64,000 bases of DNA, taken from positions 226,093 through 290,092 of the forward strand of contig NW_019218190.1 of the NCBI RefSeq assembly GCF_002571385.2, in the 5' to 3' direction. This stretch comes from Stylophora pistillata (taxonomy: Eukaryota). Below are positions 1 through 3,000 of the stretch, one piece after another; position 1 is the first letter of the stretch; every line of letters begins with the position of its first letter. A program made the position numbers.

Positions 1-3000
1 CTCTAGGGGGCATTGGTCTTTTTTCCGGCAGTTACATTCTTTGTCTAGTGTTTTTGGTGAATTTTGTGACTGGTTGTAATCTGATAGTAGCTTTTTGTTG
101 TGTGACGCGATGATTGTTTTGACGTTAGGCATGCAGGAGTAGCTTATCCTTAGTGTGTGGCGGTTGAAGATCTTGTGTAATGGATAGTTTATCGGGAAGT
201 ATCTGTCAACAATATTTAAGAACATTCTTCCTAGATTGGTCTCCGAAAAACCATATATAGATATCTATATATCCTTTCAGGACGAATTCTGCTAAGTAAA
301 AAGAGTTAAAGAGAGAAAAGAAATGATGTTTGGCGCGCTGCGCAGAACTCTGGGAGTGAGGTGCATTGACGAAGAGTAAGGACATCTAGTGGTCTATACA
401 TTCTAATAAATGGCTAAGTATTGCCTTTTACTTTCAGAAAACCATACAGAAAAGAAAGAATATCAATATATTCAAACATGTCCCCTCTGTTGTTCAGGGC
501 TGTTGCAGTTACTCTTATCCAACTAGTGCTGTTCGTTGCTCAGAACGGTGTTGGAGCAGATTTCAGTGATAATTGTGACGATTCGACCAATTCCCTTTCA
601 TGCATCCATACCTATGAGCAGCTTTATAACAGCTTAGCAAAGTCAGACAACAGTTTTAACATCGAGTCAGCCCTATATCCAGCCAAGAGGCCTTCCTCTG
701 TCCGTGTGTTTGTTAATCTTTATGGTCCCAACAAAACGGAAAACCTCATGGCAGAGTACACTTGGAGCTTATCCTGTCTGTATGTTGCTCTTCCAGTATA
801 CTACCTGCAAATTGCTTCCCTCGGATCTATTCTTGTAACACCTAGGACTCAAGCGTTGGACATAACGATTCCACACTTCTGCTGCAATGTTTCAAAGAAA
901 GAGGATGGAAGAAGGAAGGCAATAGGAGACATGATTGAAAGAGTTCACGCTTCAGTAAGTGAAAAATTGTCCGTCTTTCGAGGAACACGAGTTAAAACTG
1001 ATTAACAATCAAAGTATCGCCGAAAGTCCCATGTCTTTCTTAGGGGAGAAAAATAAAAATTCATAGCTCTTGTACGCCTTTAGGAAGGTAAATCGGCAGT
1101 CCTCGTTTTTATTCCTCCACGACGAGAGAAATTAATCTTGTGGGCGAATCCTTATCGGTGAGATTTAATCGAGCATTAGTTGAGCTCTGAATTATTTCCT
1201 TCAATCCTTTGCGTGGAAATTGCATTGCGCTTTGTGGGAGAAGGTGAAAATATGAAGAACTGAAACATCTGGAGGCACCTTACCCGTAAATGCCCAAAGA
1301 GAAAATCCTGAGGTTGTCTCCTGCTTCAACGATTCTCTTTCATTGTTACAAAAGATTTTGTTGTTGACGATGTCTGCTATCACTGTAACCAACTGTTTAC
1401 ATGTGAACAGCTGTTCCTTTATTTCTACTCATTTTACGTTTTACTATTGATGAAAGTTGTTGTTAATCTTCAGCTTCAAGATCTGGCCATATCACAAGGG
1501 ATACGGGATCCAAGGCTGAACACAGCAGAATGTGTTACCAAGGGCCACGGCTTAGGGATGACAGATATAGGAAGCAAGTTGCACATTATTATAATACTTT
1601 TGGTGTTTCCTCCTATAGTTGCTAGGTTAGGTAGTCCAGCGTTAGTTCTATTGCTTGAAGAATTTATACAAGATATTTGGTTCTTGTATGTAAAGAGTCG
1701 ACATTTGAATACAAGGGAAAAAAGGCGAATCACGAACACAGTTAAGGCCTTCCTTATTCTCAACACGGTGTTAATTTATATCAGTTTCTCTTTCTTGCTT
1801 TTAATTCCTCTAATGACATCCGTTGAGATGCTTGAAAGAAGGAAGCCATGGGATGCTCCCTCTTTTGGATGGGTTTATCCTTCATTGGCATTTTTCCTCT
1901 TTATGTCAGGTCTTGTGCACTGCGTACATCACCGCACTTGTACTGGCGAATTTTTAGAATATGTGGGGAAGACGTCAAATGATCACGTTTCGCTCTCCAG
2001 AATGCCATACTGTCTTAACGCATTCTTTATAATATTCAGTTCCTGTTGGATGCTAATCGGCATAATGCTTAACCCAACTTGGGGTTTGACCGTTGCACTC
2101 ATAATATACTTCACTTATGCTGCCTTCATTTATACAGCCTACGTATACTACTCTTTGACAAGCGGGCGACCAGAAGAAAAATTTGCTAAACCTACCGCTC
2201 TAATTGCATGTACGTTTAGTTTTCTGATTGTAATTGGTCTGATAATAATAGCAGTTTTTGCCGGACAGTCATTCTATGCAAGAGAAACCGCAGATGAAAT
2301 GCTTAAGACCGCGTTGTTGACTATTCTTGGTTCCTTTATCTCCTGGTTTTCTTGGAAGAGGTTTTTAAAAACTAACCAAACGTTAAAAAACGAGCAAGCC
2401 CCGCCTCCATCCAGCGACACGCCCATTACACCTCTTATAGGTAATCCTCTGAACGAAAATAACGAAACTGTTGCATGCAGCGAGACTCAGCCTCTCTTAC
2501 AAATAGAAAGTTCAGTGTAAAAATATTAGAACTGCGTCGCTAGATGAAAATTCAGTTTTTGGGAGATTTCTAGGGTGACGTACTGACAATTATCTAGATA
2601 CATTTAAGTATTCTTTAAAGAATTTCTTAAAAATTCTTTGGGGGTAGAGATATTTTAATAATCTAACTAGTAAAAGTAAAGGAATGGAAAGCCAGAATTC
2701 GGTACAAATATAGCAATTTCTTTAGAAATTCCTTACGTATGCTGTTTAGGTAATTTTGTGTCTACTAAATGCCGGTTAGTTGTAACATAAGATTTTATAA
2801 AAGCAAGCGACTTTCGACAATTAATAATTCCGGCATTAAAGCTGATTCAGTGCATACGTGCGGAATAATAAACAAGGAATCGATGTCATGTTAAGTTTTT
2901 ATTATAACTGGAAGAAAAGGTTCAGAGATGATAATACTTTGTTACTTTGTACCCCTCTTAACACTGAGCACATCTATGAATGGGATAGCTGTAGTGTGAA

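What the first reader, a model, noticed from the sequence alone, without database searches (positions are those of the whole stretch)
1580..2000. Diversity is concentrated in TM1-TM3, while the ectodomain and TM4-TM7 are conserved
Seen: the coding part of exon A is exactly 477 nt in copies 1, 2, 6 and 7 and aligns easily, as does the CWML...SWKR half. The segment from TM1 to the TM3-4 loop barely aligns among the same copies (compare 1580-2000, 8770-9240, 21250-21670, 32820-33250). Inference: specificity may lie in a membrane-embedded pocket or partner interface rather than the ectodomain. Alternatively, exon A is homogenised by gene conversion.
Basis: partly seen in the sequence, partly recalled or inferred. 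Interest (0 to 1): 0.7.

Follow-up and report, generated by a model that had tools for sequence, protein, structure and literature searches.

The report
Fast-evolving TM1–TM3 block in receptor-like genes
A tandem cluster of unclassified seven-helix membrane-protein genes keeps its outer domain and last four helices conserved, while the first three helices and their loops change about as fast as non-coding DNA.

Summary
Exon A is exactly 477 nt in the four named copies. Mean amino-acid identity is 0.74 in the ectodomain, 0.24 in the TM1-to-TM3/4-loop block and 0.61 in TM4-TM7.

The contrast is not only age or gene conversion. In the younger intact pair (42680-44940 vs 51794-53866), synonymous differences do not rise in the block (16/73 vs 50/191 sites, p=0.53). 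Nonsynonymous differences rise 3.6-fold by odds ratio (52/242 vs 45/640, p=6e-9). Omega is 1.25 in the block against 0.23-0.26 beside it.

Among the four older copies dS also rises, and the second half of the block is saturated. Positive selection is not shown: omega never differs significantly from 1, and M2a vs M1a gives p=0.063. Loops vary at least as much as helices, and variability shows no helical face, so a membrane-embedded pocket is not specifically supported.

Recombination is real but local. The 5' halves of copies 1 and 6 were exchanged (p=5.5e-9).

Most likely reading: modular constraint with a near-neutral TM1-TM3 block.

The parts
478..2520 (+). Copy 1 (G1). Exon A 478-954, intron 955-1473, exon B 1474-2520. 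Variable block 1576-2034.
7771..9749 (+). Copy 2 (G2). Exon A 7771-8247, exon B 8664-9749. Variable block 8766-9266.
10558..11564 (+). P3: exon-B-only pseudogene of the second group. It has a frameshift near 11205 and two in-frame stops, and is 80-86% identical in protein to G8.
13928..16821 (+). Fragments. Group-II-like exon B piece at 13928-14552. Group-I-like exon A piece with frameshift at 15038-15357. Exon B pieces at 15846-16821.
19203..22150 (+). Exon A 19203-19679, intron of 1466 nt, exon B 21146-22150. Variable block 21248-21697. The SWFSWKR motif is altered by a two-codon deletion.
31633..33708 (+). Exon A 31633-32109, exon B 32716-33708. Variable block 32818-33273.
36852..40344 (+). 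P7: a G2-like pseudogene. Insertions lie between its aligned blocks at about 37105-37227, 37948-38317 and 38616-38777, and it carries frameshifts. An open frame of 367 aa (39241-40344) carries a long insert in the tail.
42680..44940 (+). G8, intact copy of the second group. Exon A 42680-43153, exon B 43924-44940. Variable block 44026-44448.
48008..49392 (+). P10: truncated second-group copy (exon A, intron, start of exon B).
51794..53866 (+). G9, intact copy of the second group. Exon A 51794-52291, exon B 53006-53866. Variable block 53108-53461. It has deletions in the TM2-3, TM3-4 and TM5-6 loops relative to G8.

Best explanation
The window holds a head-to-tail array of two-exon genes: 6 intact-looking copies plus at least 4 broken ones. 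Each encodes a signal peptide, a roughly 130-residue ectodomain with five conserved cysteines, and a seven-helix membrane domain with its tail inside the cell.

Constraint on this protein is modular. The ectodomain, the first 34 residues of exon B, TM4-NPxWG-TM5, the TM6-7 loop and TM7 are under purifying selection. The block from TM1 to the TM3-4 loop evolves at about the neutral rate, as do the TM5-6 loop and the tail to a lesser degree. That block keeps only its hydropathy pattern and helix count.

I infer that the family's common job is done by the conserved outer face and the TM4-7 core. TM1-TM3 would then be a tolerant scaffold whose sequence is nearly free, possibly with a minority of positively selected sites in TM2 and the TM2-3 loop. 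Exchange between array members adds mosaicism and lowers exon-A divergence for some pairs, but it does not create the pattern.

Shown: gene structure, the divergence pattern, the dN/dS contrast and recombination. Inferred: topology, function and the scaffold role.
For: Gene models: 477-nt exon A and canonical splice sites in 4 of 4 copies. All copies lie on the + strand.

Purifying selection in the flanks: omega=1 is rejected for the ectodomain in 5 of 6 clade-I pairs and in G8-G9, and for TM4-7 in 5 of 6 clade-I pairs and in G8-G9.

Block omega: 1.25 (G8-G9), 2.29 (G8-P3), 1.00 (G9-P3) and 0.78-0.96 (three clade-I pairs). None of these differs significantly from 1.

G8-G9 counts: synonymous 16/73 vs 50/191 (p=0.53); nonsynonymous 52/242 vs 45/640 (p=6e-9). 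The block's dN of 0.248 compares with non-coding divergence of 0.168-0.254.

The dN(block)/dN(TM4-7) ratio is about 2-2.6 in pairs of very different age.

Hydropathy is kept at non-identical block positions: r=0.17-0.39, p<=0.024 in 5 of 6 pairs and p=0.053 in the sixth. There is no helical face of variability in TM1-3.

Seven hydrophobic or helical segments are seen, and K+R are enriched in the predicted inner loops.

Recombination.
Against: The block's nonsynonymous p-distance (52/242) exceeds that of the intron (105/696, p=0.027). It does not exceed that of all non-coding sequence (235/1383, p=0.10).

M2a fits somewhat better than M1a (LRT 5.52, p=0.063), with 8% of sites at omega 4.3.

The TM2-3 loop of G8-G9 has pN 0.40 against pS 0.06. 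An omega near 1 alongside a retained hydropathy constraint hints that some sites are above 1.

In clade I, dS also rises in the block, and omega of the block is not significantly above that of TM4-7 (p=0.3-0.55).

Topology and helix count rest on hydropathy and a low-confidence model (pLDDT 47.7). Only 6 intact sequences were available. There are no expression data.
Confidence: 0.5

Rival explanations
1. Diversifying selection. TM1-TM3, with the TM2-3 outer loop, is the specificity module (a ligand pocket or a partner interface). It is driven to differ between paralogues while the rest is a conserved scaffold, as in insect odorant receptors.
For: Omega is 1.25-2.29 in the block for young pairs. 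Block dN is at or above intron divergence (p=0.027). M2a gives omega 4.3 for 8% of sites, and 3 of its 5 top sites fall in TM2 or the TM2-3 loop. The TM2-3 loop has pN 0.40 vs pS 0.06. The hydropathy constraint persists, so an average omega near 1 implies some sites above 1 (inference). The 'variable pocket, conserved scaffold' precedent comes from PMC13207653 (passages read).
Against: No test reaches significance: omega=1 is not rejected upward in any pair, and M2a vs M1a gives p=0.063. The inner loops and the tail are just as variable. TM1-3 variability has no helical periodicity. The hot loop is flanked by indels, so its alignment is uncertain. One of the three sequences in the site test is a pseudogene.
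Confidence: 0.3
2. Age or conversion effect only. The block shows the true, old divergence. Exon A and TM4-7 look conserved because they are repeatedly homogenised by gene conversion or unequal crossing-over.
For: The 5' halves of copies 1 and 6 were clearly exchanged. G1 matches G5 rather than G6 at 78:24 informative sites in exon A against 79:113 in exon B (p=5.5e-9). For G5 the split is 78:16 against 79:133 (p=5.6e-14). Upstream identity is 84% and 5' intron identity 74% for this pair only. A second discordance lies between the block and TM4-7 (G6: 56:99 vs 46:24, p=4.6e-5). In clade I, dS in the block is 0.81-1.34 or saturated, against 0.13-1.1 beside it. In G2-P7, exon dS (0.046-0.056) is below intron divergence (0.147).
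Against: In G8-G9, dS is not raised in the block (p=0.53) while dN is (p=6e-9). In G8-P3, block dS (0.047) is below TM4-7 dS (0.145). In the first half of the block in clade I, dS (0.57-1.07 in 5 of 6 pairs) is like that of TM4-7 while omega is 0.8-1.4. Omega well below 1 in exon A shows selection, not only homogenisation. The within-exon fragment test is weak (best p=0.0275, uncorrected for the 12 pairwise tests in the two exons).
Confidence: 0.12
3. Artefact. The contrast comes from misalignment, wrong gene models or comparison with decaying pseudogenes.
For: The second half of the block in clade I is saturated (pS 0.72-0.86, identity 0.06-0.21). There it cannot be told apart from random alignment. 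G9 carries three loop deletions. No transcript evidence exists.
Against: The pattern repeats in G8-G9, where nucleotide alignment is 79% identical and 350 of 354 aligned bases are in the same codon phase. The flanking segments of the same genes keep omega at 0.2-0.26, so the genes are not decaying. Splice sites and frames are intact in 6 copies.
Confidence: 0.05

Closest known systems
Insect odorant and gustatory receptors (seven-helix ion channels)
   Same: They form a tandem, birth-and-death multigene family. They have seven helices. Paralogues are extremely divergent in some helices and share a conserved core ('variable pocket, conserved scaffold'; pocket between S2 and S6; PMC13207653, passages read).
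   Different: Those proteins have the N-terminus inside the cell (PMC13207653); that they lack a signal peptide and ectodomain is recalled. Here there is a signal peptide and a conserved ectodomain. No Pfam match to their families was found. Here loops and the tail vary as much as the helices.
Vertebrate chemosensory G-protein-coupled receptor arrays (olfactory, V1R, V2R/T1R types); recalled, not looked up
   Same: Tandem arrays with many pseudogenes, seven helices and an outer N-terminus. Some have a large ectodomain.
   Different: No profile match to any Pfam seven-helix family. No NPxxY-like motif in the last helix (the motif name is recalled). In the ectodomain-bearing types the ectodomain is the ligand-binding part (recalled), whereas here it is the most conserved part.
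Seven-helix proteins with an N-terminal luminal domain (GOLD-domain 7TM or 'GOST' proteins, Frizzled); recalled
   Same: Signal peptide, a compact cysteine-bearing N-terminal domain and seven helices.
   Different: No Pfam match and no PDB sequence match. The fold of the ectodomain could not be assessed (pLDDT 36.4).

Membership tests
Any curated seven-helix receptor family in Pfam (7tm_1/2/3, Frizzled, 7tm_6/7, Lung_7-TM_R, GpcrRhopsn4 and others) | Profile match at or above the family's gathering score | tested here: not met
   0 of 4 exon-B peptides and 0 of 4 exon-A peptides reached any gathering score. The best hits were chance-level (e.g. DUF389, 22.2 bits vs a 23.9 cut-off).
Seven-helix receptor architecture (outer N-terminus, inner tail) | Seven membrane helices, signal peptide and more positive charge on the inner loops | tested here: inconclusive
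   Six to seven hydropathy peaks per copy; the seventh is amphipathic. Seven long helices appear in an AlphaFold2 model of low confidence (pLDDT 47.7). K+R in the inner loops and tail total 9-22 per copy, against 2-4 in the outer loops.
Rhodopsin-like G-protein-coupled receptors | Conserved DRY-type motif after helix 3 and NPxxY in helix 7 (motif names recalled) | tested here: not met
   The alignment of 6 exon-B peptides shows neither motif. The only invariant NP lies in the short TM4-5 turn (NPxWG).
Insect odorant/gustatory receptor superfamily | Inner N-terminus, no signal peptide or ectodomain | tested here: not met
   A hydrophobic N-terminal leader is followed by a cysteine- and sequon-bearing domain of about 130 residues before TM1.
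Birth-and-death tandem multigene family | Same-strand tandem copies, two or more diverged groups, pseudogenes and fragments | tested here: met
   All hits are in + frames. There are two groups, 6 intact-looking copies and at least 4 broken ones.
Region under positive (diversifying) selection | Omega significantly above 1, or a site class with omega>1 accepted by a likelihood-ratio test | tested here: inconclusive
   Block omega is 1.0-2.29 in young pairs, with p=0.10-1.0 against omega=1. M2a vs M1a gives LRT 5.52, p=0.063, on 3 sequences and 279 codons.
Gene conversion or unequal crossing-over between paralogues | Significantly discordant relationships in adjacent segments | tested here: met
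   Informative-site tests give p=5.5e-9 and 5.6e-14 (exon A vs exon B) and p=4.6e-5 (block vs TM4-7). Preferred topologies differ between exons. Flank similarity is limited to one pair.

The most novel reading that the evidence does not exclude
An unclassified receptor family in which recognition specificity sits in the TM1-TM3 module and its outer TM2-3 loop. This module would be kept diverse by diversifying selection. Recombination within the array would shuffle it onto a constant ectodomain and TM4-7 core. That would be a combinatorial way of making new receptors, with the variable and constant parts arranged the opposite way from ectodomain-bearing chemoreceptors.
Probability: 0.2. Interest if true: 0.7.

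Novelty: new variant of a known kind. Interest (0 to 1): 0.4.

Why it matters
If the family is real and expressed, it is a lineage-restricted seven-helix protein family with an unusual division of labour. The ectodomain is conserved and the first three helices evolve at near-neutral speed. That tells an experimenter which half to use for finding a common partner and which half to swap when testing for paralogue-specific function. It is also a clean small example of three points. A dN/dS contrast can be separated from age effects by using a young paralogue pair with its introns as a neutral yardstick. Deep comparisons of the same family would have misled. And recombination has to be handled before site models are trusted.

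Tried and rejected
Pfam scans of 4 exon-A and 4 exon-B peptides found nothing at gathering score.

PDB profile searches with both exon alignments found no significant match; the best E-values were 0.095 and 7.3.

ESM Atlas look-ups gave a best score of 0.80 (TMEM117-like cluster), which is in the range that shuffled sequences reach, for exon B. They gave no usable hit for exon A.

AlphaFold2 on each exon's 6-row alignment gave pLDDT 47.7 and 36.4. I therefore ran no fold search and did not map variable residues on a structure.

A full-text search for five peptide motifs found 0 papers. A keyword search listed 5 papers, none about this family. A second keyword search failed on a term format and was not repeated.

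A Sawyer-type fragment test within exons gave a best p=0.0275, uncorrected for the 12 pairwise tests run in the two exons. I do not count this as evidence of within-exon tracts.

Helical periodicity of variability was absent in TM1-TM3 and present only in TM6 (p=0.018, 7 tests).

Compensated frameshifts as the cause of the G8-G9 hot loop were checked by nucleotide alignment. The indels are a 20-nt deletion plus a 2-nt insertion, with only about one codon out of frame, so I rejected this cause.

No complex prediction was attempted.
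Full report
**Scope and rules followed**

The window is a eukaryotic sequence of about 38% G+C with one N at 34518, which I left alone. I do not take the contig for human.

Every search and fold was done exon by exon. The joined (spliced) protein was never built or sent, so nothing here rests on a full-length model.

The large homology tools (search for homologous proteins, the search of protein representatives, the metagenome and viral contig collections) were closed. The remaining contig collection holds only bacteria and archaea and was not used. 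The organism, the family's range outside this window and the novelty of the family therefore stay unchecked.

**What is there**

Stop-to-stop ORFs and tblastn with copy 1's two exon peptides show a head-to-tail array. All hits are in + frames.

| Copy | Exon A | Exon B | Intron (nt) |
|---|---|---|---|

- Each has a 477-nt exon A starting with ATG, a GTAAGT donor in phase 0, and an AG acceptor before a conserved LQDLA start of exon B.
- A second, more distant group has two intact-looking copies: G8 (42680-43153 / 43924-44940) and G9 (51794-52291 / 53006-53866).
- Broken copies are:
  - P3, with a frameshift and two stops (10558-11564);
  - fragments at 13928-16821;
  - P7, a G2-like copy cut by insertions and frameshifts (36852-40344);
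  - the truncated P10 (48008-49392).

**The protein**

- Exon A encodes a hydrophobic leader and about 130 residues. Five cysteines are conserved in all six intact copies, and each copy has 1-4 N-x-S/T sequons.
- Exon B starts with a conserved 34-residue stretch ending in AEC..GH, followed by hydrophobic segments.
- Hydropathy gives six clear peaks plus an amphipathic seventh.
- AlphaFold2 on the 6-row exon-B alignment gives seven long helices, but at pLDDT 47.7.
- K+R are concentrated in the loops predicted to be inside: 9-22 per copy, against 2-4 outside.
- I therefore use the labels TM1-TM7, ICL and ECL. They are inferences.
- No Pfam family reaches its cut-off. No PDB sequence matches. The Atlas gives only chance-level scores. 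The exon-A model is unusable (pLDDT 36.4), so no fold search was run.

**The observation**

Mean values over the 6 pairs of G1, G2, G5 and G6:

| Segment | Amino-acid identity |
|---|---|
| Ectodomain | 0.74 |
| Juxtamembrane stretch | 0.71 |
| TM1-to-ICL2 block | 0.24 |
| TM4-TM7 | 0.61 |
| C-terminal tail | 0.27 |

- The block is still homologous within the group (nucleotide z = 4.0-20.1). Against the second group homology is not detectable (z = -0.5 to 2.0).
- By element, identity is:

| Element | TM1 | ICL1 | TM2 | ECL1 | TM3 | ICL2 | TM4 | NPxWG+TM5 | ICL3 | TM6 | ECL3 | TM7 |
|---|---|---|---|---|---|---|---|---|---|---|---|---|
| Identity | 0.29 | 0.27 | 0.39 | 0.13 | 0.19 | 0.08 | 0.66 | 0.69 | 0.31 | 0.40 | 0.83 | 0.60 |

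The refinements are that the loops of the block are its most variable parts, and that TM6 and ICL3 are only moderately conserved.

**Is it only age or conversion? The deep comparisons are ambiguous**

- Nei-Gojobori pS rises from 0.37-0.44 in the flanks to 0.64 in the block, while pN rises from 0.13-0.23 to 0.50.
- A codon model per segment gives omega 0.36 (ectodomain), 0.575 (block) and 0.50 (TM4-7). Tree lengths are 1.48, 6.74 and 2.53 substitutions per codon.
- Pairwise ML gives block dS of 0.81-1.34 for three pairs and saturation for the three pairs involving G2.
- Sliding windows show two different halves.
  - In TM1-ICL1, pS (0.42-0.51) is like the flanks while pN is 0.37-0.46.
  - From TM2 to ICL2, pS is 0.70-0.86 with identity 0.06-0.21, which cannot be told from random alignment.
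- ML on the first half gives omega 0.79-1.41 in 5 of 6 pairs, with dS 0.57-1.07.

**The young pairs decide it**

G8 and G9 align over their whole loci, so non-coding DNA gives a yardstick. Jukes-Cantor divergence is 0.189 upstream, 0.168 in the intron and 0.254 downstream.

Pairwise ML for G8-G9:

| Segment | dS | dN | omega |
|---|---|---|---|
| Ectodomain | 0.210 | 0.055 | 0.26 |
| Block | 0.237 | 0.297 | 1.25 |
| TM4-7 | 0.437 | 0.102 | 0.23 |

- Synonymous differences are 16/73 sites in the block against 50/191 elsewhere (p=0.53).
- Nonsynonymous differences are 52/242 against 45/640 (odds ratio 3.6, p=6e-9).
- Omega heterogeneity is significant: block vs TM4-7 p=3.5e-4, block vs ectodomain p=0.0014.
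- G8-P3 gives block omega 2.29 (dS 0.047, dN 0.108) against 0.29 in TM4-7.
- G2-P7 is less clear. The block's dS (0.115) and dN (0.065) are both about twice the flank values, on small counts, and P7 is a pseudogene.
- In clade I the block's omega exceeds the ectodomain's (p=0.012 and 0.015) but not that of TM4-7 (p=0.55 and 0.30).

It cannot be excluded for part of the deep contrast.

**Positive selection or relaxed constraint?**

- No block omega differs significantly from 1.
- A three-sequence M1a/M2a test on exon B (G8, G9, P3; 279 codons) gives LRT 5.52, p=0.063. It assigns 8% of sites to omega 4.3. The five top sites are two in TM2, one in ECL1 and two outside the block.
- The block's nonsynonymous p-distance exceeds the intron's (p=0.027) but not that of all non-coding sequence (p=0.10).
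- The sharpest peak is ECL1 of G8-G9 (pN 0.40, pS 0.06). It sits between indels. Nucleotide alignment shows that a 20-nt deletion and a 2-nt insertion leave the frame essentially unshifted, so the peak is not a frameshift artefact. The 32-nt match is, however, weak evidence of homology.
- Hydropathy is conserved at non-identical block positions: r=0.17-0.39, p<=0.024 in 5 of 6 pairs and p=0.053 in the sixth.
- Variability has no helical periodicity in TM1-TM3 (p=0.12, 0.56, 0.85). Only TM6 shows a conserved face (p=0.018, 7 tests).
- The dN ratio of block to TM4-7 is about 2-2.6 in G8-P3, G8-G9, G2-P7 and G5-G6. This looks like a steady lower constraint rather than an episode.

I read this as a near-neutral, topology-constrained block, with diversifying selection at a few sites possible but unproven.

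**Recombination**

- G1 and G5 share 84% identity over 183 aligned nt upstream, 91% in exon A and 74% in the first 200 nt of the intron. No other pair shows strong similarity in the upstream flank; the weak exceptions are G2-G5 upstream (z=6.0) and part of the 5' intron in G5-G6 (z=18.7).
- At informative sites G1 matches G5 rather than G6 at 78:24 in exon A but 79:113 in exon B (p=5.5e-9). G5 matches G1 rather than G6 at 78:16 against 79:133 (p=5.6e-14).
- A further discordance separates the block from TM4-7: G6 is like G1 vs G5 at 56:99 against 46:24 (p=4.6e-5).
- Topology tests agree in direction. Exon A prefers (G1,G5), with the (G5,G6) tree at AU p=0.045. The block and TM4-7 prefer (G5,G6).
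- A fragment test within exons is weak.

So exchange between array members is real. It explains the very low exon-A dS of the G1-G5 pair (0.13). In the other five clade-I pairs exon-A dS (0.43-0.71) is of the same order as TM4-7 dS (0.40-1.11), and omega is 0.27-0.40. Purifying selection is therefore the general reason for exon A's conservation.

**Comparison with known systems**

The pattern works like the 'variable pocket, conserved scaffold' of insect odorant receptors (PMC13207653; passages read). It also resembles birth-and-death chemoreceptor arrays in general (recalled).

It is not a member of those families by any feature I could test. It has the opposite topology to insect receptors, no profile match, and no rhodopsin-type motifs. 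The conserved elements that are predicted to face outward (ectodomain, juxtamembrane stretch, NPxWG turn, ECL3) suggest a common outer partner. This is inference.

**Verdict**

The thing is an ordinary evolutionary mode (modular constraint plus recombination in a tandem family) in an unclassified protein family. Interest is moderate.

Noticed in passing
window 39241-40344: In the broken G2-like copy P7, a 367-aa frame stays open from the SWKR motif to the family's usual C-terminal end (...ESNV). It carries roughly 300 extra Ser/Pro/Gln-rich residues that G2 lacks. There is no Pfam hit and no tandem repeat at nucleotide level.
   Followed up: partly
window 37105-37227, 37948-38317, 38616-38777: Sequence is inserted in P7 relative to G2, between the aligned blocks. 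The last insertion holds a TAT-type microsatellite read as poly-Tyr or poly-Ile. These are probably transposon or SINE insertions.
   Followed up: partly
window 34351-34421 (-) and 34757-34829 (+): Two tRNA-Thr(AGT) genes in divergent orientation lie on either side of the window's single N (34518). Both Rfam and ARAGORN find them.
   Followed up: partly
window 23724-23908 and 25213-25397: 185-nt inverted arms, 86% complementary and 1304 nt apart, are each built of 52-nt tandem units. They look like a foldback or MITE-type element between gene copies.
   Followed up: partly
window 5219-5459: A 40-nt tandem repeat of about 6 copies, 88% matching, lies between copies 1 and 2.
   Followed up: no
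window 57800-61283 (-): Long open frames on the minus strand carry weak WD40 / beta-propeller matches (best HPS5 propeller, E=9e-8, below cut-off). This is an unrelated neighbouring gene that marks the end of the array.
   Followed up: partly
Its similarity to copy 1's tail resumes after its stop codon (22296-22388 vs 2428-2520, 71%). Its 3' end may therefore be altered or decaying.
   Followed up: partly
window 6659-7063 (-) and 28027-28518 (-): Open frames of 134 and 163 aa lie between gene copies. The first has a weak reverse-transcriptase match (E=0.03). The second has only a sub-threshold ALKBH8_N match. They are probably retroelement remnants.
   Followed up: no
window 7849-8247 vs 36852-37442, with intron 8248-8663: In the G2-P7 pair, synonymous divergence of exon A (0.046) and TM4-7 (0.056) is about a third of intron and flank divergence (0.12-0.15). 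This hints at exon-limited homogenisation or constraint on silent sites.
   Followed up: partly
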